From NCBI GenBank assembly GCA_965220105.1, contig OZ244811.1:1161798-1225797 (forward strand): DNA of 64,000 nucleotides, written 5' to 3'. A model generated the notes under the pieces. The model worked only from the letters and a program-made list of their open reading frames with translations, was not told where the DNA came from and searched no databases. The position numbers and the translations under genes are program-made. The stretch comes from Dehalococcoidia bacterium. Its GTDB lineage: Bacteria > Chloroflexota > Dehalococcoidia > Lucifugimonadales > UBA3495. This document shows positions 2,595 to 43,898 of this stretch, in pieces. The first letter of the stretch is position 1. Each line of letters begins with the position of its first letter.

Positions 2595-2813
2595 GCTGGT
2601 GATGCTCCATATTGCGACGCGCTCATCTCCCCCTCTTGCCTTCAGGGCTTCGTTGGCCTTGCGTATGGCGAGCGCTAGTGTCCTGTATTCGTAGTTCGTC
2701 GTCTTATTCCGAGGCTTTCCAAAAGGACAGAAAAACGCATTCGTGCTTGAAGCAGAGTAACAGATCGGCGTAGGTCGGCCCTTTATTTCCCAATGAACTA
2801 CGGATACACCACA

Positions 2814-3525
2814 CTAGAAACCGGGCCGGAAAGCCCTGATTTGGAAGTGGAGTTGCGGCAGTAAAGCCGAGACGAACAAAATCAGGGACCATAGTTGTCC
2901 GAGCCGGACGGCGCTGAAATTGGCCGCCGCATTGGCGACCACAGCGCGGACAACATTGCGGACGACGCGGTGGCCTGCTGCGCCGCCATCGGTACTGCCC
3001 AACAGCCCGATTTTGCCCGCCACCAGGGTCAGGTTGGCCACCGTGGCCGCCAGATACAGCTGGAATGTCGTCTTGACCCTACCGAAGTAGCGGGACTGGC
3101 GGATTCCCAGCTGGACCAGCCGGGCCAATCTGTGCTCCACTACCACCCGTCGCGCTCGATACTCGTCGTAGTCGGCGCTCTGCTGCAGGGCCCGGGCCTG
3201 TTGCAGCAGGGCTTCCTGGGGATGGATCAGCACCCGTCGACCCTGCCGGCCTTGGGCCGCGATGCACTGGGAGCGCAGTGGACATACCCGACATACCGCT
3301 CCATCAAACTGGAAAGCCTGCAATCGGTAAGTGCGACCGGTGCGGTCAGTCCGTTTTCCCGCCGGCACGATGGCGTGGGTAACCTGTCCCGCCGGACAGG
3401 TGCAGCTGCCCGCGGCCAGGTCAAGGTGAAAGTCATTCTTGGGAAAGTGTTTCCGGTTGGGCCGGCCCGGCGCTTTGGCCACCAACCGGCGTCCCGCGTC
3501 GGCGAAGGTCTGGCGGGTCCCGCCG
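2814..3525 (-). pseudogene. IS5/IS1182-type DDE transposase, C-terminal fragment, truncated by the IS701-family insertion at 3526
   Basis: Track ORF 2814..3485 contains ...CTCPAGQ...FDGAVCRVCPLRSQCIAAQGRQGRRVLIHPQEALLQQAR...YRARRVVVEHRLARLVQLGIRQSRYFGRVKT..LAATVANL, the typical C-terminal region of this transposase type. The frame stays open upstream (GDGGTRQTFADAGRRLVAKAPG) right up to the inverted repeat at 3526. Confidence 0.6.
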
Positions 3526-3536
3526 TCCCCTTAGTA

Positions 3537-3754
3537 TTACAGTCGCGCATATGGTGAAGGTCTCTGAAGGCGTCTCCGGTAATGACACTGCATGGCCCGA
3601 GCCTGATGCCGCCGTCTCCACCACGACCATCCAATGGTCAGGGCAGGACTGCCGCGAGGTAGCCACCGCAGCCGGCATAGCAGCCGTCTGACCTCGGGCA
3701 CGGTCAGTGGGATGAGCTCTCCCGGGAGCACATCGCAGTAGAGTACCGGGAGGT
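3537..3754 (-). pseudogene. IS701-family transposase, C-terminal piece (separated from the rest by IS256)
   Basis: The track ORF 3537..3731 reads LPGELIPLTVPEVRRLLCRLRWLPRGSPALTIGWSWWRRRHQARAMQCHYRRR. This is the characteristic IS701 C-terminus (SxWRRRHQARARxCHY). Confidence 0.7.
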
Positions 3755-5083
3755 GGTGTAAGAGTTAGGCGGTTGGCAAAACGCTGACCACCGCGTCATC
3801 CTTGTGGAATCACAACAACCCAACCAAGGAGAACGACGGTGGTCAAACACAGCATGGATCTTTTGGAATTATTACGCAAGCGTGGTATGGACGGAGACGT
3901 GGACTTTCTGCGGGAAGCACTGCGGGTCCTGGTGGACGGCATCATGGACGCCGAGGTTTCCGCCCAGATCGGCGCTCAGCACGGCGAACGCAGCCCGGAG
4001 CGGGTCACCTACCGCAACGGCTACCGCAACCGCACCTGGGACACCCGGGTCGGCACCATGGCGTTGCACATTCCCAAGCTGCGGGAGGGCAGCTACTTCC
4101 CCAGCCTGCTGGAACCGCGGCGGCGCAGCGAGAAGGCTCTGCTGGCCGTCATCCAGCAAGCCTACGTGGAGGGAGTGTCCACCCGTCGGGTGGATGACCT
4201 GATCAAGGCCCTGGGTTGCGACGGCATCTCCAGCAGCCAGGTGTCGCGCATCTGCGAGCAACTGGACGAAGTGGTGGAGAGTTTCTTGGGTCGGCCCCTG
4301 GACGGCGGCCCCTACCCCTACGTCTGGCTGGACGGCCTGACCCAGAAGGTCCGTGAGGGCGGCCGCATCGTCAACGTCTGCGTGGTGGTGGCGACGGGGG
4401 TCAATGCCGACGGGCAGCGGGAGGTCCTGGGTATGGACGTGGGCGCCAGCGAGGACGGCGCCTTCTGGCTGGCCTTCCTGCGGTCGCTGACCGCTCGTGG
4501 CCTCAGCGGGGTGGAGCTGGTTACCTCCGATGCCCACCAGGGGCTGAAGAACGCCATCGCCGCGGTGTTTGCTGGAGCCAGCTGGCAGCGCTGCCGCACC
4601 CACTTCATGGCCAACCTGCTCACCCGAGTGCCCAAGCGTGCCCAACCTGGCGTGGCCACCATGGTGCGCACCATCTACCAGCAACTGTCTCCCGCCGAGG
4701 TCCACGGCCAACTAGACCGAGTAGTGGAACAACTCCGGGAGCCCTTTCCCCAGGTGGCCGAACTGCTGGCGGACGCTGCGCCGGACATCCTGGCCTTCAC
4801 GGCCTTCCCAGTGGCCCACTGGCAGAAGCTCTGGTCCAACAACCCGCAGGAACGGCTGAACCGGGAGATAAGGCGCCGGACTGACGTGGTGGGCATCTTC
4901 CCCAACCGGCTGTCGGCGCGGCGCCTGGTGGGCGCGGTGCTGGCCGAGCAACACGACGAGTGGGCCGAAGCCCGCCGCTACCTCACCATCCCCAACGCCG
5001 CCGGCAACGAGGCACTGCCGGAGCCCAATATGCTGGACGCAGCGGCCTGATCAACATCAACGAGGATGACGCGCTTTTACACC
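3755..5083 (+). mobile_element. IS256-family insertion sequence (about 1.33 kb), boundaries approximate
   Basis: The left end ggtgtaagagttagg (from 3755) matches the reverse complement of the right end ggtgtaaaagcgcgt (ending 5083). It holds a single mutator-type transposase gene. I could not identify a clean 8-bp target duplication. Confidence 0.7.
3839..5050 (+). CDS. IS256-family (mutator-type) transposase
   Basis: 403-aa track ORF: MDLLELLRKRGMDGDVDFLREALRVLVDGIMDAEVSAQIGA...RNGYRNRTWDTRVGTMALHIPKLREGSYFPSLLEPRRRSEKALLAVIQQAYVEGVSTRRVDDL...VWLDGLTQKVREGGRIVNVCVVVATGVNADGQREVLGMDVG..SEDGAFWLAFLRSL..RGL. The true start may be the ATG at 3854. Confidence 0.9.
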   Translation: MVKHSMDLLELLRKRGMDGDVDFLREALRVLVDGIMDAEVSAQIGAQHGERSPERVTYRNGYRNRTWDTRVGTMALHIPKLREGSYFPSLLEPRRRSEKALLAVIQQAYVEGVSTRRVDDLIKALGCDGISSSQVSRICEQLDEVVESFLGRPLDGGPYPYVWLDGLTQKVREGGRIVNVCVVVATGVNADGQREVLGMDVGASEDGAFWLAFLRSLTARGLSGVELVTSDAHQGLKNAIAAVFAGASWQRCRTHFMANLLTRVPKRAQPGVATMVRTIYQQLSPAEVHGQLDRVVEQLREPFPQVAELLADAAPDILAFTAFPVAHWQKLWSNNPQERLNREIRRRTDVVGIFPNRLSARRLVGAVLAEQHDEWAEARRYLTIPNAAGNEALPEPNMLDAAA

Positions 5084-6322
5084 TATTGACGGGACGCTAC
5101 CAGCATCGCCCCCTTTGCCAGCGCCACCATCGGCGTAGGACCGGGTCACTTCAAGGAAGGCATGGACCAGTAACGCCAGGGTGATGTGACGGTACCACCC
5201 GACCCACCGCCGCACCGGGTATTCGTCCAACCCCACCTCCTGTTTGGCCGCTTTGAAGGCATCTTCGATGATCCACCGGGCGCCAGCCACGCGCACCAGT
5301 TCCGCCAGCGGCGCCTCCCCTACACCAAAACAGGCGTAGTAGGCCAGGTCCTCAGGATCGGTGATGCTGCGACGCGCCAATAGCCAATGCCCCTGAGCCG
5401 GCTCTGACCAAGGCCGTAGCGACACTCGGCTCCAATCGTAGCGGCGTGGCCTTTGCTACCGTCCCCAGCGCTCAGACGTTGCCACTGGTCATCGGGTATC
5501 TGCTCGGCCAACCGCCGCGCCGCCACCGGCGCGGCGCCACGCTCCGTGTCGGTCCACAACGGCGCATTACTCTTCACCGCCAGCACGTATGACCGCCAGC
5601 ACGTAGGGTAGGCCCTGCTCCTCCAGCCATCGGCGCAGTCGGCGGTCATTGCCGTACACCGTATCCCCAGTTACCCAGGCAAAAGGCACACCAGCACCTG
5701 TGGCTCGTTCAATCATCCCCTGGGCCAATTGTGCTTTGGTATTGTGCTTTGCTACGGAAGGCTACCGCTTCCGCCACCCCGGCTTCCCGCCGTCGCTCCC
5801 AGTCCTCCGCCCATTCCTGGGGCAGGTAAAGCTCCCGATCCAGCAAGGCTGGGCCATAACGACTGCCATAGGCCAGGACCCCCCGATCTGACAGTTCTCT
5901 ATCTTCTCCGCCGTGCCGCTGTACTGCCGCTTTACCCCCACCGACTTTTGGCCTTGCTTGAAGAACCCCGTCTCATCCACTACCAGCACCCCTCCCGGAT
6001 CGCCCAGATGCTCCACCACGTACCCTTGCAGGTCGTCCCGCACCCGGTCCGCATCCCAGTGGTACACCGCCAGCAACCGCTGCACCCCATCGGGCGTGGC
6101 GTCTCCAGCGTATTCGGCCAACTGCCATCCATTCTTGCGCTCCACCGACCCCAGCAATCCTTTCAGGTACGCCAGCACCCGCTGACGAGACTCACTGCGG
6201 CTGAAACGAAGCGCGATACGCGCGTGCAGCGCCTGGAGCCCAGCCTCCCAGTCCAGTGCTTCCTCCAGGGCGTCCTCTCCCTCCAGTAATGTCTGACCCA
6301 TTTCCAACCCCTCCGCTCTCAC
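5084..6322 (-). pseudogene. IS701-family transposase, N-terminal and central parts, frameshifted
   Basis: Three overlapping minus-strand track ORFs in different frames (5762..6322, 5320..5649, 5057..5425). They read ...[82 protein letters not shown]... and ...[43 protein letters not shown]. Confidence 0.75.
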
Positions 6323-13116: not shown

Positions 13117-14211
13117 TCACCTTTCGCAGACGACGCCGTCACCGTCGCCGTCTCGGGCGCTCGGCACCATCAGCTTCGGGAAGCCTCGGCCGGTGCCTTT
13201 GCTGCCCTGCACTCGGGTTTCGCCGACCGCCTGCGCTGCGTCGCAGGAGCTGTACGTTCTTGCAGCCCGAGTAGCTGTGGACGGCACCGGTGTCGCCGTT
13301 GGCCGGGCTGGCGAACTGGTTGTGTTCGGCCTCTGCCCACCTTGGCTGGGCTCTCCTGCCAGTAACGTGGGGCGGTTCGGGCACGTGTTGAGCATTTCAG
13401 CCAGTGCGGCATGCTCCCCTTGGGTGACGGTAAGCACCCAGCTGTACTTGATGGTGATCCAGTCAACGGCGTACTGGCACCAGTAGGTGCGGTTGTCTGG
13501 TTTCCACTCTTCCGGTCCTCGTGCGCCCTTCGAACGGTTCGCGCTGGCCGTGACGGCAATCAGGTGCTGAGGGTCGTCCAGGTAGTTGGCGTATTGCTCT
13601 CTCCGATTGGCCGACCAGTTCCAGGCACCGCTGTCGTGCCCGTTGCCCAGCGGCACCATGTGGTCAACGTCGAGTTTGCCGGGATCGACTACGACGGTGT
13701 TGCTGTACGGGGCCAGCCATTCGCCGGTCGTCACCCTGCACTTCCTGTCGGTTCGATGGGCAACTGCGGTCCGGCTTTCGGCAATCAGTACCTCGTTGCG
13801 GGCATCTTGGCAATCCCGGTCGGCGTCGGTCCAGTGTTTCCAATCTTGGCGGTCGTAGTCCGGCAGCGTGGCTGGGACTGCTGACACGGTCACGCGCAGA
13901 ACCGTGGTGGTGGTCGCCGTAGGTTCCTGGGGCGCGGCGGTTTGCGCTGTTGCCGTTTCTGACTGTGCCTCTGGCGCTGCTGTTGGCGTCTGAAGATTGG
14001 GCGGCCCTACCGTCGCGGAAGGGACAGGCTGAGCCGGTGTGGTTTCGGTGGCGGTTGTCGTTGTTGGCAGCCCTGTGGTTGTCGTTGCCGACAAAGGTCT
14101 TGCATCGGTGCTCGTCTCGCTCCCGACTTGAGGGGGTGGTGACGTGGACTCCGACGAACAAGCGATCAGCAGAGCTGCGACGATCCAGATGAGGACAGCA
14201 GCAAATCTCAC
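13117..14211 (-). CDS. secreted lipoprotein nuclease: HNH/DUF1524-type His-Me domain plus C-terminal Excalibur Ca-binding domain
   Basis: Signal peptide and lipobox MRFAAVLIWIVAALLIACSS, then a Thr/Pro-rich linker. Nuclease core: DYDRQDWKHWTDADRDCQDARNEVL...VDHMVPLGNGHDSGAW...LIAVTASANRSKGARGPEEWKP. Excalibur domain: YSSCDAAQAVGETRV....PSARDGDGDGVVCE. Confidence 0.8.
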   Translation of the reverse strand: MRFAAVLIWIVAALLIACSSESTSPPPQVGSETSTDARPLSATTTTGLPTTTTATETTPAQPVPSATVGPPNLQTPTAAPEAQSETATAQTAAPQEPTATTTTVLRVTVSAVPATLPDYDRQDWKHWTDADRDCQDARNEVLIAESRTAVAHRTDRKCRVTTGEWLAPYSNTVVVDPGKLDVDHMVPLGNGHDSGAWNWSANRREQYANYLDDPQHLIAVTASANRSKGARGPEEWKPDNRTYWCQYAVDWITIKYSWVLTVTQGEHAALAEMLNTCPNRPTLLAGEPSQGGQRPNTTSSPARPTATPVPSTATRAARTYSSCDAAQAVGETRVQGSKGTGRGFPKLMVPSARDGDGDGVVCER

Positions 14212-14335
14212 GGTTCGATCTCCAAGGGCGTACTATCTGTGTTTGCCACGTGCCGGAATCACTCCTGAATTCCGGGCAAACGGCGGCAATTGTCTCACCA
14301 GTCCCTTGAACTGGCAACGACGCCAGGTGGTGGAA

Positions 14336-14986
14336 TCAGAAGTCGGTGGTAGTTCTGCCTTCGGGCTCGGAGCCTTCGTCCACGCGCTCCGGGCAGTCCA
14401 GGGCGCTGATGTCGCAGAATTGGCATTCCGGTCTGCTCGGCACTCGGGCGGGCGGCTGGTCGGCCGCCAGTCGGCGGATCAATGCTCCCAGGTTCTGGAT
14501 GAACTGGTCGTCCACCGCCTCCGCCGGTATGCGGACCGTGTGGTCCAAGTAGGTGGCCTGCCCGCTGAGTTTGAGAGTCCGGTACTGCTCGAATGCTCTC
14601 GGGATGGCGTACAGGTAAATCATCACCTGTACGACGTGGCTGGCGCTCTCCTGCCCGGTCTTCACGTCGACGATGACCGCCTGGCCGTCCCGCTGCGTGA
14701 TTAGGTCGGGCTTGCCCGCCAGCGTTGCTGACCTGCCGCGGAGCTGGAAGCTGTTCTGTCCCTCGATGTTCACATCAAAGCCACCGTGCTTCCAGTTTGC
14801 TTTTCGCTTGTTGAGGAGCGCGGTGTGGTTCAGCATCCACTGGGCTTGGTTGAAGTCCGATGGGACCTTGGTCTAGTCCTGGTGGTGGGCCTTGAACCAG
14901 ACGGCCCACTCGCACGAGTTCTCGCCGGTCAGCAACCTGGATAGGCAGGTGGCCGAGATGTAGGGGTGTTCGCGTCGCTGGGTCAA
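14336..14986 (-). pseudogene. Cas4/RecB-like PD-(D/E)XK nuclease with an in-frame TAG (14873-14875)
   Basis: Track ORF 14336..14836 has ...KPDLITQRDGQAVIVDVKTGQESASHVVQVMIYLYA (D...DxK, QxxxY) and a C-terminal CQFCDISALDC. Upstream, in the same frame and across one TAG, I read (TTG 14986) TQRREHPYISATCLSRLLTGENSCEWAVWFKAHHQD*TKVPSDFNQAQW-MLNHTALL. The total is 651 nt (217 codons). Confidence 0.7.
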
Positions 14987-15077
14987 GGTCTATTCACTGG
15001 AAGTGGGCTGGCGTCGGTGCTCTTTGGTCCAGTTTATTTCGGTGTCCGTCGAGCCCACAAGGGGCGCCTGTCATCAA

Positions 15078-15320
15078 ATGGTGAACCAGAGTACGATGGT
15101 GGAGGACTGCCGTCGAGAGGTGCGGCTAACGGCGCGTGAACGGGAGGTCCTGTCCAACCCGGCGTTGGGCTGGGAGACCAGGTACATTGCCGAGGGGTTG
15201 GGCGTGAGCGGGTACACGGCCAGGAACCACATCGAGAACCTGCGGACGAAGCTGGGCGCGTCCAGCCGTCTGGAGGCCGTCATGGTCGCCATGAGGCTTG
15301 GGATGCTGCCGTCAGAATAA
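15078..15320 (+). CDS. LuxR/GerE-type helix-turn-helix transcription regulator (small, DNA-binding domain only)
   Basis: LTAREREVLSNPALGWETRYIAEGLGVSGYTARNHIENLRTKLGASSRLEAVMVAMRLG. I prefer the ATG at 15078 within track ORF 15003..15320. Confidence 0.7.
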   Translation: MVNQSTMVEDCRREVRLTAREREVLSNPALGWETRYIAEGLGVSGYTARNHIENLRTKLGASSRLEAVMVAMRLGMLPSE

Positions 15321-15426
15321 TTCCGGGATTGCGGTGGGTTCCTTTGTTCTCAGGCGACGGGTGTTCCCAAACGTGCTGACCAATCAAGATCGACCATTTG
15401 AGGCTGAACAACATAGGAGGAAGCTG

Positions 15427-16281
15427 ATGGCGGAGCGGACCCTGACGATAGACTGCCAGGTGCATGCCTACGAGCGGAACAAGCCCGAACGCCCGTGGGT
15501 CGGGTTTCTGACCGGGCCGGACGAAGTTACGGGGGACGACATGATCGCGGCAATGGACGCGGTGGGCGTGGACGGCGCGCTGCTGATTTCGCCGTTCGTG
15601 CTGTACGCATACGACGCCAGCTACGCGCTGGAGGTGTACGCGCAGCACCCGACCAAGTTCGGGCTGATCCGGCCGTTTGATCCCAACTCAGAGACGATTG
15701 ACGCCGACGTGGAGGAATGGACGTCCACGCCGGGCGTGGTGGGCGCGCGCATCATGCTGGCGAACTCGGACTACGAGGCGGACCACGCGGGGCTGAACGG
15801 CATCCTGGCGGCCGGCGGGCGTGCCGGCGTGCCGGTGAACATCATGGCGGCGGGCAAGCTGCCGTTGCTGCGGGAGCTGGCGCAGCGCAACGCCGACACG
15901 CAGATCGTGATCGACCACGTGGGGTTAGCGCAGCCCTTCAACCCGCCGCCGCCGGTGGAACCCTTCGCCGACCTGGGCAACGTGCTGTCGCTGGCGGCGC
16001 TGGACAATGTGGCGATCAAGATCTCCGGCGCCGGCACACTGTCGCACGCGGGGTTCCCGTATCCGGACATCTGGGAGCCGCTGTCTCGCATCTTCGACGC
16101 GTACGGGCTGGAGCGGTGCCTGTGGGGGACGGACTGGACGCGGGCGGTAGAACTGCTGACGTACGAGCAGGGCGTGGCGGCGTTCCGGCTGACGGACACG
16201 CTGTCGGACTCTGACCGGGAGACGCTGATGGGCGGAGCGCTGTCGAACATCTACAAGTGGTCGCCGGCGGTGGTGGAATAG
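15427..16281 (+). CDS. amidohydrolase-2 (TIM-barrel metal-dependent hydrolase) family protein
   Basis: The ATG at 15427 is preceded by aggagga. It reads MAERTLTIDCQVHAYE...AMDAVGVDGALLISP...VIDHVGL...CLWGTDWT. Confidence 0.75.
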   Translation: MAERTLTIDCQVHAYERNKPERPWVGFLTGPDEVTGDDMIAAMDAVGVDGALLISPFVLYAYDASYALEVYAQHPTKFGLIRPFDPNSETIDADVEEWTSTPGVVGARIMLANSDYEADHAGLNGILAAGGRAGVPVNIMAAGKLPLLRELAQRNADTQIVIDHVGLAQPFNPPPPVEPFADLGNVLSLAALDNVAIKISGAGTLSHAGFPYPDIWEPLSRIFDAYGLERCLWGTDWTRAVELLTYEQGVAAFRLTDTLSDSDRETLMGGALSNIYKWSPAVVE

Positions 16282-16396
16282 GGCGCGTCCTGCGATCCGC
16301 CGGGAGCGGACCTCCCGCGAGCACAAGACGATCCTGCGACCCGCCGGAGGCGGACTTTCGGCAGGCTCACGATGAGCGGGGGTTGGGAATTGCGCT

Positions 16397-16424
16397 GTAG
16401 GGGCGAATGGTTATTCGCCCCTAC
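16397..16424. repeat. perfect 12-bp-stem hairpin (gtaggggcgaat ggtt attcgcccctac), REP-like
   Basis: It is a perfect palindrome seen directly in the sequence. Track ORFs over it (for example 16251..16499, ...VGANNHSPLQ...) are translations of the hairpin. Confidence 0.5.
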
Positions 16425-16978
16425 GAATTCGGCCAGGTGCCCATTGCCACGCCAATCGCGAAGGGGAGTATCGTCAAGGTCAGCGGCAAAACGTACCACT
16501 GAGGTGTTGCCTGAGGTTCACGGCTTTGCCGGTGGGGCCCCGCTTGGAGCACCGCCGGCCGCCTTTCAGGATTGACCATCATCCCAATGCCGCCTCTAAC
16601 TGGCGACGTTCATCAAACGAGCTAATTGCGAAACTGGCGCGAGCGTGCGGCTCTGTGGCGGAAATTCAGCGCGTTGTGGTGCTGGTAGTGGAACCGGCCG
16701 CCCCGTGGGAAGCAAAAGCCACCGTGGTAAATGAGCACGGCGGCAAACGCACGAGCTCCACACCCTGAATGGAGACTCGCATGCCCCCGCATTATTACAG
16801 CGCGGAGGGGTCTTGAGACGGGTCCGGAGGGACTCTCTCCCCACCTTGAGGACGGAAAAGAGCTTGTGCGCGTTTCTTCGGTGGTGGTGGCCGTTACGCC
16901 TGGGAAGGCCCGGACTTCGTTCGTGGAAATCGTTGGTGTTTATGGAGCGTGGCCTACGCTCCGGTGCCGCAGTGTGAC

Positions 16979-17727
16979 CTATATGACGGTGTAGCGGCTG
17001 GTAAGGGCCGTCTTGGCCCTTTCCTGGTCATCGGTGGTGATGGCCGCCGTGGCGTAGTTTTCTCTGCGCTCGATGATGTGGAAAGTCCTGATGTTGAGGC
17101 CGGCGCCCGTGAGTTCGCCGGCAAGGTTGGCCAGGGCTCCGGGCTGGTCCAGGAGCTGCACGAGTACAGCTTCGTCAGAGACTGCCTTGAAGCCAGCTTC
17201 GTTGAGGATGGCCAAGGCGTGGTCCGTCCGGTCGGTGGTGATGATCACCACTCCGTGCTGTCCCTCGTTCTCGGTCGTGATGCTGTTGAGGTTCACTCCG
17301 CCCTCGGCCAGGGTGCCGGCAATCTGGGCAATGACGCCGATGCGGTTTTCGGCCATGATCACGATGCGCTGCATCGTGGTTGCGTGAGCAGTCTGCTTCT
17401 GTTGCTCTTGAGCCGGCAGGCCGGTTTCCGCCGGCGGCATATCGTGTTCCTGCCGCGGTTCGGGACGGGGACTGACGCAGTCGTCGACCAGCCGGTCGAT
17501 GGTTTCGAAGTCAACGTGGGGCATGGTGATGATGTGGGCCACGTCGCCCTCGGGGGCAATCTGCCATTTGTCGAAGACTTCCTGCGAGGGGCGGTCGAAC
17601 ACCACGGTGGGCGAGTTCCGGTGTCGCCAGGCGCTGATGCCGTGTTCGTTGAACCGTTTCACGGCGTACTCGGCAGTGTCCAGCATACCGTGGACGGTCT
17701 CTCTCCATCCATCTTCGCCGTAACGGT
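16979..17727 (-). pseudogene. hdc: histidine decarboxylase (PLP-dependent)-ACT-ACT fusion gene, C-terminal half, separated from its N-terminal half by a 6.6-kb IS stack
   Basis: The minus frame reads ...RYGEDGWRETVHGMLDTAEYAVKRFNEHGISAWRHRNSPTVVFDRPSQEVFDKWQIAPEGDVAHIITMPHVDFETIDRLVDD (HDC C-terminus). A linker and two ACT-like repeats follow (IVIMAENRIGVIAQIAGTLAEGGVNLNSI..., VLVQLLDQPGALANLAGELTGAGLNIRTF). Confidence 0.8.
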
Positions 17728-17816
17728 GTAACTGTTCAGACTTGGTGAGGTGAATTGGCCGAATTGGGTTAGGAGATGGCTGGCGTTGGGGGTGGTGGTT
17801 ATGTCATATAGCTGGG

Positions 17817-18665
17817 ATGGAAGGTGCAATTGATCTCCGGACTGCCGACCGGGATGTGCTCATCGGCATCATCATCCGACAGCAGGCCATCATTGAACGC
17901 CTGGAGAAGCGGGTCGCCCAGTCGGAAGGCAAGGGCAAATCCGGCGGTTCGGGACGGATGCCCGGCCTGAAGCCCAAAGGCGACGGGAAGACGGATCAAC
18001 CCAAGAAGCCGCGCCAGCCCCGTCGCTCGGGCTTTGCCCGAACCAGAATGACGCCCGACCAGCGGATGGAGCACGCGCTGGAGCGGTGTCCCGATTGTGG
18101 GATCCAGTTGTCCGGGGGCTGGACCCAGCGCACTCGGGAGGTCATCGAGTTGCCCCAGGTTCCGGTGCAGGTAACCGAGCACGCCTATATCGCCCGCGCC
18201 TGCCCCCAGTGCCAACGGCGGTGGGTTCCCTCGGCGGAGTTGGACGAGGTGGTGATGGGCCAGCAGCGCCTGGGGATCAACCTGGTCAGCCTGATTGCCG
18301 CACTCCGGGAAGAGGCCAGGCTGCCCTTCCGTACCATCCAGTGGTACCTGGCCGCGGTGCATGGTCTGCACCTCAGCGTGGGCGCCATCGTGGCCGCCAC
18401 ACAAAGGGTGGCCGACCGAGCCCAGGGGATGATGACCGACATCGTGGAACGGATCCGAGGCAGTCCGGTGGTCCACGCCGACGAGACCGGCTGGCGGGAG
18501 GACGGACACAACGGTTACGTGTGGACCTTCAGCACCCCCACCCAACGCTACTTCCTGCGGAGGGGACGCGGCAAAACCGTGGTGGATGAGGTCCTGGGCG
18601 ATGAGTTTGCCGGGGTGCTGGTCAGCGACTTCTATGCCGCCTACCACCACTACGACGGCCCCAAG
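17817..18665 (+). pseudogene. IS66-family transposase TnpC, N-terminal 283 codons
   Basis: ...ERCPDCGIQLSGGWTQRTREVIELPQVPVQVTEHAYIARACPQCQRRW...VVHADETGWREDGHNGYVWTFSTPTQRYFLRRGRGKTVVDEVLGDEFAGVLVSDFYAAYHHYDGPK. It then runs into a foreign terminal repeat. Confidence 0.85.
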
Positions 18666-18668
18666 CTA

Positions 18669-18783
18669 GTAGACCAACCGCTTTGAAATGATGGGAATCC
18701 GTCTTCACGCCTTGCTTTAGACCGACTTCGCTGGAGAACCAGGACGAAGCCAGCAACTCATCATTTCAAAGATTTCGGACCAC
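18669..18783. mobile_element. 115-bp MITE with IS630-type terminal inverted repeats, flanked by TA
   Basis: The left end gtagaccaaccgctttgaaatgatgg matches the reverse complement of the right end gtggtccgaaatctttgaaatgatgag. TA is present at 18667-68 and 18784-85. It has no coding capacity. Confidence 0.7.
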
Positions 18784-18785
18784 TA

Positions 18786-20005
18786 GTAGCCTAACAGCTT
18801 TGAACTGACGGATAATGAGGTGAATTAAAGGAGCTAAAGAATAAGGTGCGGGGAGTGAGTGATGGAGAAGAAGTACAGGGTCAAACTGAGCGTGGAGGAG
18901 CGGCAGGAATTGAAGGCAATGGTAACGAGAGGGCGGGCGGCGGCCTACCGGCAGACCCACGCCCGCATCCTGCTGTTGAGTGATGAGGGGCAAGGGGACG
19001 GGGTGATGAAGGACGGGGATATCGCCCGGTCCCTCCAAGTTGGCCGGGCGACGGTGGAACGGGTGCGCCGCCGCTGCGTGGCAGAGGGTCTGGAGCGGGC
19101 CTTGGGGCGCAAGGAGCAACTGAACCGGAGGCAGAAGCGGTTGGACGGTCAGGGGGAAGCCCATCTGATTGCCCTGGCCTGCGGAGAACCGCCCGAGGGC
19201 CGGGCTGGTTGGACGCTGAAGTTGTTGGCAGAGCGGTTGGTAGAACGGGAGATAGTGGAGAGCATCAGCCCTGAAACGGTGCGCCAGACGCTCAAAAAAA
19301 CGAACTCAAGCCTTGGCTGAAAGAATGCTGGTGCATCCCGCCCCAGGCCAGCGCCGAGTTCGTGTGCGCTATGGAAGACGTGCTGGAGGTCTATCATCGC
19401 TCCTATGGAGACAACGAAGTGCTGGTGTGCCTGGACGAGACCAGCAAGCAGCAGGTAAGCGAGACCCGTCAGCCCCGCCCGTCGCGGCCTGGGGCGGCCC
19501 AGACCTACGATTACGAATACCAGCGCAACGGGGTGAGCAACCTGTTCATGTTGTTCGCGCCGCTGGAGGGGTGGCACCGGGTTGAAGTGACGGACCGGCG
19601 TACCAAAGTAGATTGGGCGCGGGTGGTCAAGCAACTGATGGACGAGGACTACCCGGACAAAGACCGGATCGTGCTGGTGATGGACAATTTGAACACCCAT
19701 CATCCAGCGTCCCTGTACGAGGCGTTCGAGCCGGCGGAAGCGCGGCGCATCGCCGAACGTCTGGAGATTCACTACACGCCCAAGCATGGCAGTTGGCTGA
19801 ACATGGCCGAGATCGAAATCGGGGTGATGGTCCGCCAATGCCTGGACCGGCGCATACCGGACCAAAGCGTCCTGCGGCGGGAGGTGGCAGCGTGGCAGCA
19901 GCAGCGCAACCAGGACGCAATACGGGTGCATTGGCGCTTCACCACCGCGGACGCCCGCATCAAATTGAAGTCCCTGTATCCATCAATTCAAAGATGTTGA
20001 ACTAC
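18786..20005 (+). mobile_element. IS630-family insertion sequence (copy A, 1220 bp), flanked by TA
   Basis: The left end gtagcctaacagctttgaactgacgg matches the reverse complement of the right end gtagttcaacatctttgaattgatgg. TA is present at 18784-85 and 20006-07. Confidence 0.85.
18859..20000 (+). CDS. IS630-family transposase, two frames joined by a putative -1 frameshift on A7 (19294-19300)
   Basis: Track ORFs 18859..19320 (HTH part ...ETVRQTLKKTNSSLG*) and 19362..20000 (DDE part). Slipping -1 on ctc aaa aaa a gives LKKNELKPWLKECWCIPP... The span of 1142 nt plus 1 equals 381 codons. Confidence 0.8.
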
Positions 20006-20085
20006 TAGGCTTTACGCATAATTTAGAAAAAGTATAAAGACAGGGTAAGCTGGCCTGACCCCACTTTCAACGGAAAGGCCCAGCC

Positions 20086-20991
20086 ATGCTCACCCTGCCC
20101 GATGCCATTGTAGCCGTTCTCGTTCCCTTCGCAACGCTGTTTACGAGCCCAACCTGGCGGAAAGCCCAACTGCTGCTGGTCGGCGCGATCCTGACCCCGG
20201 GCCAACGCACCGTGGCGGCGGCACTGCGCGTCATGGGCCGCAGCGACCAGCGCGACTACGCCCGCTACCACGAGGTGCTCAATCGGGCGGTGTGGTCGTC
20301 CCGCCAGGCAGCGCGCATCCTGCTGGCGCTGTTGCTCCAGCACCTGGATGGTGGCGACGGCCCACTGATCTTCGGCATCGACGAGACCCTGGAACGGCGT
20401 CGCGGCGCCAAGATCAGGGCGCGGGCCATCTACCGCGACCCGGTGCGTTCCAGCCGGTCTCAGGTGGTCAAGGCCAGCGGTTTGCGCTGGATCTCCCTGA
20501 TGTGGCTGGGCCACGTGCCATGGGCCGGACGCCATTGGGCCTTGCCGGCGCTCACGGTGCTGGCGCCTTCGACCCGTTACTACCAACAGCAGGGACGCCA
20601 GCACAAGAAGCTCACCGACTGGGCCCGCCAGATGGTCATGCAACTGCGCCGCTGGCTGCCCCACCGACCCCTGGCGCTGGTGGGCGACAACAGCTATGCC
20701 GTGCTGGATTTGCTCCACTGCTGCCAGTCCCTCCGTGAACCCGTTACCCTGATCGCCAGATTGCGTCTGGACGCCGCCCTGTATGCGCCAGTGCCACCCC
20801 GTCAACCTGGCCAGAACGGTCGCCCGCCATTGAAGGGCCCGCGGCGGCCGCCGCTGAAAGTTTTCCTTGCGCAGACGGATGTAACTTGGGCCAGCGCCGA
20901 GGTGGCCTGGTACGACGGCATCACCCGCGCCGTGGAACTCACCTCCCAGACGGCGGTCTGGTACCGCTCCGGCAAGCCCCCCGTCCTCATT
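20086..20991 (+). pseudogene. IS701/IS4-like transposase, N-terminal part
   Basis: MLTLPDAIVAVLVPFATLFTSPTWRKAQLLLVGAILTPGQRTVAAALRVMGRSDQRDYARYHEVLNRAVWS...LIFGIDETLERRRG...LVGDNSYAV...WYRSGKPPVLI, then the IS21 end. Confidence 0.75.
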
Positions 20992-21074
20992 TGATAGACG
21001 ACAATTAGTCCTGCCGGTAGCGACGACTATTTTTGCCGGTCGATATGGGGTAATCATTCGGTACGGAGGTACCG

Positions 21075-22577
21075 TTGATTACAGACCGACAAACCAGGCT
21101 ATTGAGGCAGAAACGTATGGAAGGCAAGACACAGGAAACGGCAGCGGCCAAGGCTGGGATGAGCGTGCGTTCCGCGCGCAAGTGGCAGAGTGGCCCATTG
21201 CCGTCGCAGGCGAAACCGGAGCATCGGTGGCGTACCCGGCCCGACCCCTTCGACGGGGTGTGGGAGGATGAGATCGAGCCGCTGCTGCGGAATGATCCGA
21301 CGGGCAAGCTGAAGGCAACGACAATTATCGACTGGCTGGCCGAGCAGCATCCCGGGCGGTTCAGCGCATCCCAGTTGCGCACGCTGCAACGACGATTACA
21401 GGATTGGCGGGCGCTGCATGGTCCGGATCAGGAGGTGTACTTTCCCCAGGTGCATCCGCCGGGACGGGAAGCCCAGTTCGACTTCACCCACTGCGGGGAA
21501 CTCAGGGTGTCCATCGCGGGCCAGTCCTACCCCCACCTGCTGTTCCAGCTGATCCTCAGCCACTCGGGGTGGCGCTACGCCGAGGTCGCCGCCGGCGAGA
21601 CCTTCCTGGCGTTGCAGCAGGGATTGCAGGCCGCCCTCTGGACCCTGGGCGGCGTTCCAGAGGTGGTGCGCAGCGACAATACCTCGGCGGCGACTCACGA
21701 ATTGCGCAGCAGCCGCGGCCGGGCGCTGAACGACAATTACGCCGCCCTGCTGGACCACTACGGCCTGCGCTCCACCCGCATCAATCCCGGCCAGAGCCAT
21801 GAAAACGGCGTCGCCGAGCACGCCCACTACCGCTTGAAGGACGCCATCGACCAGGCCCTGATGCTGCGCGGCAGCCGCGATTTCCACACCACCGACGACT
21901 ACGCCGACTTCGTCCGGCAGATGGTGGAGCGACGCAATCGCCTGGTGGAGGGGAAGCTGGAGCAGGAAACGGCTTGTCTAGGGCCCCTGCCCCCAGCCCC
22001 GGTGCCGGAATACGCCAACTACCAGTCCAAGGTGCGCCGGTGGTGCACCATCCAGGTAGCGGGACATAGCTACAGCGTCCCCTCCCGTCTCATCGGTAAG
22101 GAGGTGCAGATCCGTCTGTACGCCGACTGGGTGGAAGTGTACTACAAGGGCCACCTGGTGGAACGCATGGCAAGGGTGCACGGTGATGGGGAAGCCAACG
22201 TCAATTACCGCCACGTCATTGGATCGCTGGTGCGCAAGCCGGGAGCCTTCGCCCGCTACCGTTTCCGCGAGCAGCTGTTTCCCACCCTGCACTTCAGGCT
22301 GACCTACGACGCGCTCCGGGAATGGCGCGGGGAGCGTGCCGACGTGGAGTACGTGCGGATCCTGCACCTGGCGGCCACCACCATGGAAGCCACGGTGGAC
22401 AGCGCGCTGTCGCTGCTGCTGGAAGCGGGTGAGTCCTTCGACTACGCCGAGGTGCGGGACCTGGCCGAGCCCAAGGTGCCCGAAGCCCCGCTGCTGACTC
22501 TGTCCGGGAAGCCGGACCTGAAGATCTACGACCGCTTGCTCACGGTCAGCCTGGCCACGGCGGGGGTGTGCGCATGA
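21075..22577 (+). CDS. istA: IS21-family transposase IstA
   Basis: 500 aa with an N-terminal HTH (KTQETAAAKAGMSVRSARKW) and a DDE core (EAQFDFTH...VVRSDNTSAATH...ENGVAEH). Confidence 0.9.
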   Translation: MITDRQTRLLRQKRMEGKTQETAAAKAGMSVRSARKWQSGPLPSQAKPEHRWRTRPDPFDGVWEDEIEPLLRNDPTGKLKATTIIDWLAEQHPGRFSASQLRTLQRRLQDWRALHGPDQEVYFPQVHPPGREAQFDFTHCGELRVSIAGQSYPHLLFQLILSHSGWRYAEVAAGETFLALQQGLQAALWTLGGVPEVVRSDNTSAATHELRSSRGRALNDNYAALLDHYGLRSTRINPGQSHENGVAEHAHYRLKDAIDQALMLRGSRDFHTTDDYADFVRQMVERRNRLVEGKLEQETACLGPLPPAPVPEYANYQSKVRRWCTIQVAGHSYSVPSRLIGKEVQIRLYADWVEVYYKGHLVERMARVHGDGEANVNYRHVIGSLVRKPGAFARYRFREQLFPTLHFRLTYDALREWRGERADVEYVRILHLAATTMEATVDSALSLLLEAGESFDYAEVRDLAEPKVPEAPLLTLSGKPDLKIYDRLLTVSLATAGVCA

Positions 22578-23350
22578 TGGACACCAGCGTGATGCAGGAA
22601 CGCATCGGCCAGCTGTGCGGCCAATTCAAGCTGCCTACCATGGGGGCCCAGTCGGTGGCTCGTTTCACCGCGGCTGGCCACGGCGATGCCCTGGCCACTT
22701 TCCTGGAGGTACTGGAACAGGAAGCCGAGGATCGCCGCCACCGGCGCATCAGCCGGCTGCGTCAGTCGTCCAGGCTGCCCTCGGGCAAGACCTGGGAGAC
22801 CTTCGAGCACGACCGAGTCCCCCTGGCGCTGCAGCAGCAACTTGACCAACTGGCCCAGGGCAGCTTCGTCGAGCGCGGCGTCAACGTGCTGGCCTTCGGA
22901 CTGCCCGGCACCGGCAAGACCCACGCCCTGTGCGCCCTGGGCCACCGCCTGGTGGAAGCCGGACACTCCGTACTCTTCGCTCCGGCCTACCGCCTGGTGC
23001 AGGAGCTCCTCGCCGCCAAGCGCGACCTGGACCTGCCCCGCCAGCTGCGCAAGCTGGACAACTTCGACTTCCTGCTCCTGGACGACCTGGGCTACCTGCC
23101 CCAGGGCGCCGAAGAGTCCGAGGTCCTCTTCACCCTGATCGCCGAACGCTACGAACGCCGGTCCTTGGGCATCACCTCAAACCTGGTCTTCTCGGAGTGG
23201 GAACGCATCTTTGCCAACCCCATGGCCACCGCCGCGGCGATTGACCGGGTCGTGCACCACTCCGTCATCCTGGAGTTTGACGTCCCCAGCTACCGGACTG
23301 ACGCAGCCCAGCAACGGGGCCAAGCAAAGGAGGTGAACCGGCAAAACTGA
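22568..23350 (+). CDS. istB: IS21-family helper ATPase IstB
   Basis: Walker A GLPGTGKTH and Walker B FLLLDDLGY. It overlaps the end of istA by 10 nt. Confidence 0.9.
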   Translation: MRMMDTSVMQERIGQLCGQFKLPTMGAQSVARFTAAGHGDALATFLEVLEQEAEDRRHRRISRLRQSSRLPSGKTWETFEHDRVPLALQQQLDQLAQGSFVERGVNVLAFGLPGTGKTHALCALGHRLVEAGHSVLFAPAYRLVQELLAAKRDLDLPRQLRKLDNFDFLLLDDLGYLPQGAEESEVLFTLIAERYERRSLGITSNLVFSEWERIFANPMATAAAIDRVVHHSVILEFDVPSYRTDAAQQRGQAKEVNRQN

Positions 23351-23391
23351 TTGACGCCAACCGGCAAATATAGTTGACGCGGGACATCATT

Positions 23392-23847
23392 CGCTGGGTG
23401 CTGATCCGAGACCCCCAGGGCTCCTTCGCCACTCAGGCCCTGCTCTGTACCGACCCGGCGGCGGACCCGACCCAGATCCTGGAATGGTTTGTACTGCGCT
23501 GGCAACTGGAGGTCACCTTCCACGAGGTACGAACCCATCTGGGTGTGGAGACACAACGCCAGTGGTCCGATCTCGCCATCGCCCGCACCACGCCCGCCCT
23601 ACTGGGACTCTTCTCCTGGACCACCCTGGCCGCCCACGCGTTGCAGAAACGGCGCCCCATGACCCAGCGCAAGGCCGCTTGGTACGACAAACCGTCGCCG
23701 ACCTTCGTGGATGCCATCGCCCTGGCGCGTCGCCACCTGTGGCTGGCGTCGGAAGGTTTCTCACTGTCGGTCGCTGACCCCGACATTCAGGAACTCCCGG
23801 TCGCACTGTACCACCGACTTGTAGATTCCCTTGCCTACGCCGCTTGA
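23392..23847 (+). pseudogene. IS701/IS4-like transposase, C-terminal part
   Basis: RWVLIRDPQGSFATQALLCTDPAADPTQILEWFVLRWQLEVTFHEVRTHLGVETQRQWSDLAIARTTPALLGLFS... It is in frame with the N-terminal part once IS21 and one tcatt copy are removed. Confidence 0.75.
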
Positions 23848-23868
23848 ATTGCGTAAAGCCTAGCCAAG

Positions 23869-24354
23869 CAGCGCTGCTGGGCACATCTGCTGCGCGACAT
23901 CCACGACCGGCGCGTCCTCTACCCCGACGATCTCCCCTTGGTCCAGTGGGCGGAAGCCGTCCACCAACTCTACCAACAGGCCAAAGCCTTCACCCATCCG
24001 GCAGAGCAGCAGCGACGCGCTGCCCAACTGGCCCTGGAACGACGGCTGCTGGCGCTGTGCCGTCCCTACCGGGATGACCCGGCGTCGGCGCAGGCCAGAC
24101 TGTGCCGACGCATCAGTAACCACATCAAGGAACTCTTCGTCTTCGTGGCTGAACCCGACGTGCCACCAGATAACAACGCCGCCGAGCGCAGCCTGCGCCC
24201 AGTGGTGATCAGCCGCAAGATCAGCGGCGGCACCCGCTCGGAGCGAGGCACCGAGACCAAGATGGCGCTGGCCTCAATCTTCGGCACCTGGCGCACACAA
24301 GACCTCAACCCACTCGCCGCCTGCCAGCAACTCCTCGCTTCCCCTCAACTCTGA
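23869..24354 (+). pseudogene. IS66-family transposase TnpC, C-terminal part
   Basis: My translation from 23869 reads QRCWAHLLRDIHDRRVLYPDD...RLCRRISNHIKELFVFVAEPDVPPDNNAAERSLRPVVISRKISGGTRSERGTETKMALASIFGTWR. It continues GPK at 18665. Confidence 0.85.
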
Positions 24355-24362
24355 ACAGTTAC

Positions 24363-25217
24363 GTAACGGTTGATGGCGTACCAGAGCATGAGCGGGGTGA
24401 GGCCGTTGCGGGAACCGGACAGGGTGGTGTCGTTGACGCCGACGAGTTCGATGGCCCGGCCCAAAGTTTCGACCAAGTGCTTGCGTGTGACGACGATACC
24501 GCAGGGCAGGGGTGCGCCGATCAGTTTGTGGCCGCTGATGGAGATGCTGTCGATGCCGGCGTCGAACCCGAAGGGCTGTGGGTCATCCACGTAGGGTAGG
24601 ATCATGCCGCTGAGCGCCGCGTCGGCGTGGATGTAGTGTTCTTCGATGCCCAGCTCGTCAATGATTTGTCGGATCGCGGGGATGTCGTCCACGGCGCCGC
24701 GCATGGTGGTGCCGATGGTGGCCAGAATGATGGCCGGCCGGTCCCGATGGACGGTCAGCATGTCCCTGAGGTCGTCGTAGTCGATCTCGCCGTCGGGCTG
24801 CCGTTTGACGGTGGTGTGGGGCATGTTGAGGACGCGAGCAATCTTGAGGATGGAGTAGTGGGCTTCCTCGGAGAAGTAGAGCATACCCTCGGGATGGAGT
24901 TCCCGGGCCAGGTAGAGGCCGTACATGTTGCCTTCGGTGCCGCCCGAGGTGACGTAGCCCCAGGCGTCCTCTGGGTCCAGGCCCATGAGCTGGGCGAAGT
25001 GGAGGATGACCTCTCGCTCGAACTGGTGGGTGTTGGCCCGGTAGTTGGTCTGGTGGAAGGGGTCTCCGACGTTGTTGAGGGAGTGGCTGAGGAATGGGAT
25101 GAGAGGGGAGTAGTCGAAGCTCTGGTTGCCGGGGTAGCCCACCTGCCATTGCTCCGCGTCCTGGATTGTCTGGAGGAGTTCAGTCAGGCGGGTTTCGATG
25201 TCGTTCGGTGCGGTCAT
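24363..25217 (-). pseudogene. hdc: histidine decarboxylase (PLP-dependent), N-terminal 285 codons
   Basis: MTAPNDIETRLTELL...GYPGNQSFDYSPL..FLSHSLNNVGDPF...YVTSGGTEGNMYGLYLARE...HADAALSGMILPY...DSISISGHKLIGAPLPCGIVV...LSGSRNGLTPLMLWYAINRY. The 855 nt here plus 749 nt at 16979-17727, minus the 8-bp duplication, give 1596 nt (532 codons). Confidence 0.85.
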
Positions 25218-25274
25218 GGTTGCTTTGTCCTCGGCGCGCTAGATGTTGGATGTGGGAAGATACTTGTGTTTTGG

Positions 25275-25488
25275 AGTGTGCGTCCCTGCGTACGCGGGGA
25301 ATGCAAACGACGAAAGGGGGTGATCGGATGATATTCGGTGGATCCCTACGCGTGTGCGGGGCCAATCTGGCGAAACCTCAGCTACACGGCATTGCGTCCG
25401 GTGAATCCCTGCTCGCGCGGGGCCAGTGCCTTTGCCATCTGAATCTGCCTGATGCTCACCTGTGAATCCCTGCTCGCGCGGGGCCTTG
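25275..25488 (-). CRISPR. orphan, degenerate type I-E-like CRISPR mini-array (4 repeats, 61-62 bp period)
   Basis: Repeat cores start at 25278, 25339, 25401 and 25462. Two are identical (gtgaatccctgctcgcgcggggcc) and two are decayed (gtggatccctacgcgtgtgcggggcc; gtgtgcgtccctgcgtacgcggggaa). The reverse complement ggccccgcgcgagcagggattcac resembles the I-E consensus ...CCCCGCGCCAGCGGGGATAAACC. No cas genes are in the window. Confidence 0.6.
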
Positions 25489-25515
25489 TGTTGCCTCGGT
25501 TCGTCTGTCGAGAAA

Positions 25516-41428: not shown

Positions 41429-41456
41429 TAATTTCATTATCTGAAAATCTATACTA

Positions 41457-42652: not shown

Positions 42653-42654
42653 TA

Positions 42655-43884: not shown

Positions 43885-43898
43885 TAGTAACGGTACTA

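What the first reader, a model, noticed from the sequence alone, without database searches (positions are those of the whole stretch)
16979..25217. A histidine decarboxylase gene split by a 6.6-kb, base-resolvable, multi-level nest of five transposable elements
All junctions can be read directly. (1) An IS66-family element (17728-24362, IRs gtaactgttcaga/tctgaacagttac) sits in hdc with the 8-bp duplication gtaacggt. (2) Its TnpC gene is split after ...HHYDGPK by an IS701/IS4-like element (IRs ctaggctttacgc.../...gcgtaaagcctag) with the duplication ccaag. (3) That element's transposase is split by an IS21 (20992-23386) with the duplication tcatt. (4) A 115-bp MITE and a full IS630 have both landed at the TA inside the first four bases (cTAg) of the IS701-like left end, giving TA-MITE-TA-IS630-TA. 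Removing each layer restores continuous reading frames: PPVLI|RWVLIRD, GPK|QRCWAHLL and YAINRY|GEDGWRE. For hdc, 855 + 749 - 8 = 1596 nt.
Basis: seen in the sequence. Interest (0 to 1): 0.6.

Follow-up and report, generated by a model that had tools for sequence, protein, structure and literature searches.

The report
Decarboxylase gene split by nested transposons
A histidine-decarboxylase-type gene in an uncultured Dehalococcoidia bacterium is broken by five mobile elements inserted inside one another; every junction checks out, but this is the ordinary result of many active transposons in one genome.

Summary
The 6,635-bp insert (17728-24362) is a single-ORF IS66-family element with an 8-bp duplication (GTAACGGT). 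It holds an IS701-family element with a 5-bp duplication (CCAAG). That element holds an IS21 (5-bp duplication TCATT), plus a 115-bp MITE and a 1,220-bp IS630 arranged as C-TA-MITE-TA-IS630-TA-G.

Removing the layers in silico gives:
- a 1,432-bp IS66 element 100% identical to an intact copy elsewhere in the same 4.37-Mb genome;
- a 1,459-bp IS701-like element 99.2-99.9% identical to 22 intact copies, each with its own 5-bp duplication;
- a 531-aa decarboxylase that aligns without gaps, at 93% identity, to intact 531-aa homologues.

Related genomes show the empty site with a single ACCGTTAC.

The gene scores above the NCBIfam histidine decarboxylase cut-off and carries two C-terminal ACT domains. 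Its substrate is untested.

- The two-frame IS630 transposase with an A7 slip site is conserved, so it is not decay.
- IS630-type elements here insert into CTAG and recreate CTAG at both junctions, which fits the recurrent TA-linked arrays.
- The nesting shows topology, not strict order of events.

This is known biology, so interest is low.

The parts
24363..25217 (-). 5' part of the hdc-ACT gene (codons 1-285, ending ...YAINRY). Its last 8 nt are one copy of the IS66 target duplication.
   Evidence: ORF. Restored 531-aa frame. NCBIfam histidine decarboxylase equivalog at 487 bits. 93% identical with 0 gaps to P0001.
16979..17727 (-). 3' part of the hdc-ACT gene. It starts with the second duplication copy, then codons 286-531 (GEDGWRE... 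through two ACT domains) and the stop.
   Evidence: Pfam ACT / ACT_8 hits at residues 400-523.
17720..17727 (.). 8-bp target-site duplication GTAACGGT, left copy. The right copy is at 24363-24370.
   Evidence: Relatives carry a single ACCGTTAC at the gapless empty site.
17728..24362 (+). IS66-family element with a single transposase ORF (ISBst12-like layout), 1,432 bp once its insert is removed. It now carries the other four elements. Its own parts are 17728-18665 and 23869-24362.
   Evidence: Restored element is 100% identical over 1,432 bp to an intact copy at G000:3550877-3552308, which has its own 8-bp duplication ACGGAGTG. Pfam DDE_Tnp_IS66 plus zf-IS66. NCBIfam at 276 bits.
18661..18665 (.). 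5-bp target-site duplication CCAAG, left copy. The right copy is at 23864-23868.
   Evidence: Most of the other full-length copies in the genome (19 of 22) have their own matching 5-bp duplication.
18666..23863 (+). IS701-family element, 1,459 bp when restored, with CTAGGCTTTACGCA ends. Its own parts are 18666-18668, 20008-20991 and 23392-23863. Its 453-aa transposase is split by the IS21.
   Evidence: 22 intact copies at 99.2-99.9% identity. The restored copy has one mismatch (position 788) to the majority copy. Pfam DDE_5. NCBIfam IS701 at 323 bits.
18669..18783 (+). 115-bp non-coding MITE of IS630 type, flanked by TA within CTAG.
   Evidence: 10 further copies at 99-100% identity, all flanked C-TA...TA-G. 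Its end motifs also appear in TA-linked arrays elsewhere.
18786..20005 (+). IS630-family element, 1,220 bp. The HTH frame is 18859-19320 and the DDE frame is 19362-20000 in the -1 frame. The A7 slip site at 19294-19300 joins them into a 380-aa transposase.
   Evidence: 4 further copies at 99.4-99.6%. A7 is present in all copies, in a 93% copy and in two diverged lineages. NCBIfam IS630 hits on both halves.
20992..23386 (+). IS21-family element, 2,395 bp, TG...CA ends, with istA 21075-22577 and istB 22568-23350. Flanked by TCATT at 20987-20991 and 23387-23391.
   Evidence: Removing it plus one TCATT restores the IS701-like sequence without a gap. NCBIfam IS21 at 201 bits and IstB at 224 bits. 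It is the only copy at 100%; the closest relative is 86.7% identical.

Best explanation
A 531-codon gene for a PLP-dependent, histidine-decarboxylase-type enzyme fused to two ACT domains was knocked out by a transposon insertion.

The structure:
- A single-ORF IS66-family element sits in codon 283-285 and made an 8-bp duplication.
- Its transposase gene holds an IS701-family element that made a 5-bp duplication.
- That element's transposase gene holds an IS21 that made a 5-bp duplication.
- The CTAG at the IS701-like left tip holds a MITE and an IS630. Each duplicated the TA, giving C-TA-MITE-TA-IS630-TA-G.

Shown: the junctions, the duplications, the element families, the identity to intact copies, and the empty site in relatives.

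Inferred:
- The events were sequential, driven by a recent burst of IS activity in a genome that is about 9% repeats. The near-zero divergence from sister copies supports a recent burst.
- IS interiors are neutral landing sites, so nests build up there.
- IS630-type elements here end in G...C. Each insertion into CTAG therefore recreates CTAG on both sides and invites the next insertion. In this case it also rebuilds the IS701-like left end.

The split IS66 and IS701 copies are dead on their own but could be moved in trans by intact sister copies. The IS21 and IS630 look intact. The MITE cannot move by itself.
For: - Junctions and duplications were read directly. Excision restores three open frames.
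- The restored IS66 is 100% identical to an intact copy with its own 8-bp duplication. The restored IS701-like element matches 22 intact copies, most with their own matching 5-bp duplications. IS630 has 4 more copies and the MITE 10 more.
- Family models are passed above curated cut-offs.
- The restored decarboxylase is 93% identical with 0 gaps to a 531-aa homologue. About 45 homologues have the same length.
- Gapless empty sites with a single ACCGTTAC occur in at least 8 related Dehalococcoidia genomes.
- None of 40 relatives shares the junction.
- 15 of 16 MITE/IS630 copies lie in CTAG.
- 11 TA-shared junctions between IS630-type ends occur in the genome, including a run of at least six MITEs at G000:1621368-1622108.
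- CTAG is six-fold depleted: 2,372 sites against 15,136 expected.
- IS630 is known to prefer TA within CTAG (Tenzen and Ohtsubo 1991, cited in PMC2170065).
- IS-within-IS insertions occur at the rate expected from IS genome fraction, and ISs lack self-avoidance (PMC12065110).
Against: - There is no read-level evidence. A population in which only some cells carry the nest, or an assembly problem, cannot be excluded directly.
- The order of events is not proven by topology.
- The enrichment of TA-linked arrays over the expectation from CTAG counts is a rough estimate: about 11 seen against about 1 expected. Local hopping could also produce it.
- Only 1 of about 25 IS701-like copies has an IS630-type insert at its CTAG tip.
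Confidence: 0.93

Rival explanations
1. Assembly artefact. A metagenome assembler joined repeat copies from different loci or strains, so the nest does not exist as one molecule.
For: The genome is a metagenome-assembled single contig. About 9% of it is repeats of at least 300 bp at 90% identity or more, and the window is 32% repeats. Reads could not be consulted.
Against: A false join through a repeat would not leave matching duplications of 8, 5 and 5 bp and TA at four layers. It would also not leave flanks that restore three reading frames and a gapless empty site. The IS21 innermost layer is unique in the genome, so it is not a collapse-prone repeat.
Confidence: 0.03
2. The structure is the same but the history differs. 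All or part of the nest was built elsewhere and then moved as a unit, mobilised in trans by intact sister copies. For example, the IS701-like element already carrying IS21 may have hopped into the IS66, or the loaded IS66 may have hopped into hdc.
For: The outer ends of both split elements are intact. An identical IS66 copy and 22 near-identical IS701-like copies could supply transposase.
Against: No second copy of any inner junction exists in the genome. The IS66 left part has only one other full match, the intact copy, and IS21 is single-copy. Long composites generally transpose less well (general knowledge).
Confidence: 0.07
3. The broken gene is not a histidine decarboxylase in function. 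It may be a related group II decarboxylase, for example serine-specific, regulated through its ACT domains.
For: Plant serine decarboxylases are nearly as close among solved structures (E = 1.7e-96 against 3.5e-110 for HDC). The ACT fusion is absent from characterised HDCs of about 376-380 aa (one search lists both forms).
Against: The NCBIfam equivalog model for histidine decarboxylase is passed by a wide margin, 487 bits against 305, over residues 6-370. The best solved match is bacterial HDC 7ERV/7ERU.
Confidence: 0.15

Closest known systems
IS-within-IS (nested) insertions in IS-rich bacterial genomes
   Same: Elements land inside other elements, leave their usual target duplications and inactivate the host element's transposase. 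The frequency follows the IS fraction of the genome (PMC12065110). IS-annotation pipelines explicitly handle nested clusters (PMC4072520).
   Different: This case has three IS levels and five elements from four families plus a MITE, all cleanly resolvable, inside one gene of an uncultured Dehalococcoidia. That is unusually tidy, but it is not a different kind of event.
IS630 / Tc1-mariner elements with TA duplication in CTAG, and Roseiflexus IS630 with slippage-dependent transposase
   Same: TA duplication and a CTAG target (Tenzen and Ohtsubo 1991 via PMC2170065). The transposase is made from two frames joined at an A-run, as reported for IS630 of Roseiflexus, another Chloroflexota (PMC5009743).
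   Different: Here the element ends (G...C) rebuild CTAG at both junctions, and TA-linked arrays are frequent. I did not find this point stated in the papers I read.
IS66 family, ISBst12 subgroup
   Same: IS66-type DDE transposase with a zinc finger, 8-bp duplication, and ends starting GTAA. The ISBst12 subgroup is listed as part of IS66 (PMC8024623).
   Different: It has no tnpA/tnpB accessory genes and is only 1,432 bp. Classical IS66 is about 2.5 kb with three ORFs (own knowledge of ISfinder descriptions).
PLP-dependent bacterial histidine decarboxylase (e.g. PDB 7ERV/7ERU)
   Same: Residues 11-368 align to the whole solved enzyme at E = 3.5e-110. The SGHK PLP-lysine motif is present.
   Different: It carries a linker of about 30 aa and two C-terminal ACT domains. 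This 531-aa form is conserved in Dehalococcoidia and is also found in Verrucomicrobiota, Armatimonadota and Planctomycetota MAGs.

Membership tests
IS66 family (ISBst12-like) | DDE_Tnp_IS66 transposase with an N-terminal zinc finger | tested here: met
   Pfam PF03050 at 1e-44 and PF13005. NCBIfam NF033517 at 276 bits against a cut-off of 180, on the restored 444-aa protein.
IS66 family (ISBst12-like) | 8-bp target duplication and inverted repeats starting GTAA | tested here: met
   GTAACGGT on both sides here, and ACGGAGTG at the intact sister copy. Ends are GTAACTGTTCAGA.
IS66 family (ISBst12-like) | tnpA and tnpB accessory ORFs of classical IS66 | tested here: not met
   The 1,432-bp restored element holds only the one 444-aa ORF. 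This fits the single-ORF ISBst12 subgroup rather than classical IS66.
IS701 family | IS701-type DDE transposase | tested here: met
   NCBIfam NF049999 at 323 bits against 170. Pfam DDE_5 at 5e-33.
IS701 family | 4- or 5-bp target duplication | tested here: met
   CCAAG here. Most (19 of 22) full-length sister copies have their own matching 5-bp duplication; three do not. The 4-5 bp range is reported for the family (PMC8024623 citing Siguier 2015).
IS21 family | Adjacent istA (transposase) and istB (AAA+ helper) genes | tested here: met
   IstA NF033546 at 201 bits against 160. IstB NF038214 at 224 against 200. The genes overlap by 10 nt.
IS21 family | TG...CA termini with repeated end motifs, and a short target duplication | tested here: met
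   TGATAG...GGGACA ends with a repeated ...TGCCGGT motif in both ends. TCATT duplication.
IS630 family | IS630/Tc1-type DDE transposase with an N-terminal HTH | tested here: met
   NF033545 matches both halves (model positions 3-108 and 129-299). Pfam HTH_32 and DDE_3. A fused 380-aa frame results after a -1 shift at A7.
IS630 family | TA target duplication, preferably in CTAG | tested here: met
   All 5 IS630 and 11 MITE copies are flanked by TA. 15 of 16 are in C-TA...TA-G.
MITE (non-autonomous IS630-type element) | Short, non-coding, terminal inverted repeats like an autonomous element, same target duplication, multicopy | tested here: met
   115 bp, 19/25 inverted repeat, TA flanks, 11 copies at 99-100%. 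Its right-end motif also flanks IS630-like elements of about 80% identity. Mobilisation was not tested.
Histidine decarboxylase (group II PLP decarboxylase) | Sequence membership above the curated equivalog cut-off, with the PLP-lysine motif | tested here: met
   NF002748 at 487 bits against 305, over residues 6-370. SGHK is present. Best solved match is HDC 7ERV.
Histidine decarboxylase (group II PLP decarboxylase) | Decarboxylates histidine to histamine | not testable with these tools
   This needs an enzyme assay. Serine decarboxylases are close relatives.

The most novel reading that the evidence does not exclude
IS630-type elements in this genome end in G...C and insert into CTAG. Each insertion therefore makes two new CTAG sites in a genome where CTAG is six-fold depleted. 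Insertion would then promote further insertion, building TA-linked arrays. The CTAG tips of the roughly 25-copy IS701-like element would serve as harmless landing pads, a form of IS-on-IS targeting that limits damage to host genes.
Probability: 0.35. Interest if true: 0.35.

Novelty: new member of a known kind. Interest (0 to 1): 0.2.

Why it matters
The main value is for annotation.
- It defines the exact ends, target duplications and copy numbers of five previously undescribed mobile elements (IS66/ISBst12-like, IS701-like, IS21, IS630 and a MITE) in an uncultured Dehalococcoidia lineage.
- It shows that two adjacent 'fragments' are one pseudogenised HDC-ACT gene.
- It documents very recent IS activity, since sister copies are 99.9-100% identical.

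It also gives a clean natural example for teaching or benchmarking IS-annotation software on nested insertions. It does not open a new biological question. The CTAG self-renewal idea is a modest mechanistic point that could be tested.

Tried and rejected
- Shared insertion in relatives: a 300-bp hdc/IS66 junction probe against 40 related genomes found only the hdc half or the IS half, never the junction. The insertion is therefore not old or shared at species level.
- Synteny around hdc in relatives: only the gene itself aligns at DNA level and the flanks do not. Neighbours gave no help on function.
- The CTAG at the IS701-like tips as a 4-bp target duplication rather than part of the element: rejected. 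All 24 copies carry CTAG at both ends, and most have variable matching 5-bp duplications outside it.
- The two-frame IS630 transposase as decay: rejected. A7 and the same frame arrangement are present in all 5 copies, in a 93% copy and in two lineages 68-78% identical. A systematic long-read homopolymer miscall (A8 read as A7) cannot be fully excluded.
- An intact paralogue that would make the loss harmless: the 62%-identical paralogue at G000:3379338-3380927 has a complete catalytic part but an in-frame stop in the linker before the ACT domains. Redundancy is plausible but not shown.
Full report
**What is there.**
I read 16700-25500 and listed ORFs, then located each junction by script. On the minus strand a gene starts at 25217 and runs to 24363 (855 nt, ending ...LWYAINRY). 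It resumes at 17727 and ends at 16979 (749 nt). A 6,635-bp insert lies between the two parts (17728-24362).

The insert has these layers:
- IS66-type element: ends GTAACTGTTCAGA / TCTGAACAGTTAC, flanked by GTAACGGT on both sides (17720-27 and 24363-70).
- IS701-type element at 18666-23863: ends CTAGGCTTTACGCA, a 14/14 inverted repeat, flanked by CCAAG (18661-65 and 23864-68).
- IS21 at 20992-23386: TG...CA ends, flanked by TCATT (20987-91 and 23387-91).
- At the left tip of the IS701-type element the sequence reads C-TA-[115-bp MITE 18669-18783]-TA-[1,220-bp IS630 18786-20005]-TA-GGCTTTACGC.

**Excision test.**
I removed each layer with one copy of its duplication. This gave:
- a 1,459-bp IS701-type element with a 453-aa ORF (junction PPVLI|RWVLIRD);
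- a 1,432-bp IS66-type element with a 444-aa ORF (GPK|QRCWAHLL);
- a 531-codon host gene (YAINRY|GEDGWRE), 1,596 nt with the stop.

**Independent confirmation from the same genome.**
The window lies in a single 4,368,549-bp contig. BLAST of the restored elements against it gave:
- IS66-type: 100% identity over all 1,432 bp at 3550877-3552308.
- IS701-type: 22 full-length copies at 99.2-99.9%, plus two at 87%.
- IS630: four more full-length copies at 99.4-99.6%.
- MITE: ten more copies at 99-100%.
- IS21: unique at 100%, with a full-length relative at 86.7%.

The flanks of those copies show an 8-bp duplication (ACGGAGTG) at the intact IS66. Nineteen of the 22 full-length IS701-type copies have their own matching 5-bp duplications outside the CTAG tips, so the CTAG belongs to the element. 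Fifteen of 16 MITE/IS630 copies have C-TA...TA-G flanks. In-silico repair produces sequences that exist intact elsewhere, so the reconstruction is right. It also argues strongly against a false join.

**Families.**
Pfam and NCBIfam place the proteins above curated cut-offs:
- IS66 transposase: 276 bits against 180, plus the IS66 zinc finger.
- IS701: 323 against 170.
- IS21 IstA: 201 against 160. IstB: 224 against 200.
- IS630: both halves match.

The IS66-type element has one ORF and no tnpA/tnpB. That is the ISBst12-like layout, a subgroup named in PMC8024623. The same paper cites 4-5 bp duplications for IS701 members.

**The host gene.**
The restored protein passes the NCBIfam histidine decarboxylase equivalog (487 bits against 305, residues 6-370). 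It also has two ACT domains at residues 400-523. Its best solved relative is bacterial HDC 7ERV/7ERU (E = 3.5e-110), and plant serine decarboxylase is next (1.7e-96).

A database search found about 45 homologues of exactly 531 aa at 84-93% identity. The alignment to P0001 is 494/531 identical with no gap. Genome records with these homologues are titled Dehalococcoidia MAGs. More distant HDC-ACT fusions occur in Verrucomicrobiota, Armatimonadota and Planctomycetota MAGs.

A 128-bp probe made from the two flanks with one duplication copy aligns without gaps to 14 related loci. Eight of them carry the exact ACCGTTAC once. None of 40 related genomes has the hdc/IS66 junction. So the gene was intact in the recent ancestor and is a pseudogene here.

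**How it most likely came about.**
The genome is about 9.4% repeats of at least 300 bp at 90% identity or more. The window is 32% repeats. The sister copies are almost identical: 0 differences for IS66, 1 for IS701 (position 788), and 0 for the MITE. This points to a recent burst of transposition.

ISs do not avoid each other, and IS-in-IS hits occur at the rate expected from IS genome fraction (PMC12065110). Insertions into an already dead gene or into another IS cost the host nothing, so such nests persist. This part is inference.

The topology does not fix the order of events at this site. Intact sister copies could have moved a loaded element in trans. However, no second copy of any inner junction exists in the genome.

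1. The IS630 transposase is in two frames joined at an A7 run (19294-19300). Reading one A twice gives a 380-aa protein with the family motif LKKNELKPW. The same A7 and frame layout are present in all five copies, in a 93% copy, and in two lineages only 68-78% identical. Frameshift or slippage use is known in the IS630 family, including IS630 of Roseiflexus, also a Chloroflexota (PMC5009743). The element is therefore probably functional, not decayed. A systematic long-read homopolymer error remains a small caveat.

2. IS630 prefers TA in CTAG (Tenzen and Ohtsubo 1991, cited in PMC2170065). Here the elements begin with G and end with C, so C-TA-[G...C]-TA-G recreates CTAG on both sides.
   - CTAG is rare in this genome: 2,372 sites against 15,136 expected.
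   - There are 11 junctions where two IS630-type ends share a TA. They include a run of at least six MITEs at G000:1621368-1622108 and another IS630-TA-MITE pair at 3590574/3590577.
   - My rough expectation under equal use of all CTAG sites is about one such junction.
   - The TA-MITE-TA-IS630-TA arrangement in the finding is thus a recurring pattern here, not a coincidence.
   - A side effect is that the terminal C of IS630 plus TA rebuilds the full CTAGGCTTTACGC left end of the IS701-type element at 20005. BLAST indeed extends to that base.

**What could not be done.**
No read-level check of the junctions or of population heterogeneity was possible.

**Verdict.**
The observation and the interpretation are both correct. 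The structure is a tidy example of a known process, made of new members of known IS families. Interest is low.

Noticed in passing
window 16979-17400 (ACT part), and loci L009-L050: The HDC-ACT fusion (531 aa, two C-terminal ACT domains) is conserved at exactly this length in many Dehalococcoidia MAGs. It also occurs at 47-62% identity in Verrucomicrobiota, Armatimonadota, Planctomycetota and Alphaproteobacteria MAGs. Characterised HDCs of about 376 aa lack it.
   Followed up: partly
G000:C1:3379338-3380927 (outside the window): A 62%-identical paralogue of the HDC-ACT gene has a complete catalytic part but one in-frame stop in the linker just before the ACT domains. This is either a split into two genes or a nonsense lesion.
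   Followed up: partly
window 13902-17314, and G000:C1:2514447-2517861: A 3.4-kb segment is duplicated at 95.5% identity elsewhere in the genome. It covers the last 111 codons of hdc and the genes downstream. The second copy breaks off inside the ACT region into unique sequence, with no recognisable IS end.
   Followed up: partly
window 25335-25485: Three CRISPR-like repeats of about 27 nt at 61-63 bp spacing lie directly upstream of hdc. The repeat occurs nowhere else in the 4.37-Mb genome (with up to 3 mismatches), so this is an orphan remnant.
   Followed up: partly
window 19294-19300, 42159-42165, 43360-43366: The same A7 slip site and -1 frame layout is kept in three diverged IS630 lineages (68-78% identical).
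   Followed up: yes
G000:C1:1621368-1622108, 2797716-2799300 and 1628149-1628511: Arrays of MITEs and IS630 copies are joined head-to-tail or tail-to-tail through shared TA dinucleotides. There are at least six elements in the first array.
   Followed up: partly
whole window: 32% of the window is repeated elsewhere in the genome at 90% identity or more, against 9.4% genome-wide. Further IS clusters lie at 2675-6017 and 41446-44720. The window is an IS-rich island. The DNA flanking hdc is not syntenic with relatives.
   Followed up: partly
G000 whole genome: CTAG is six-fold under-represented: 2,372 sites against 15,136 expected from base composition.
   Followed up: no
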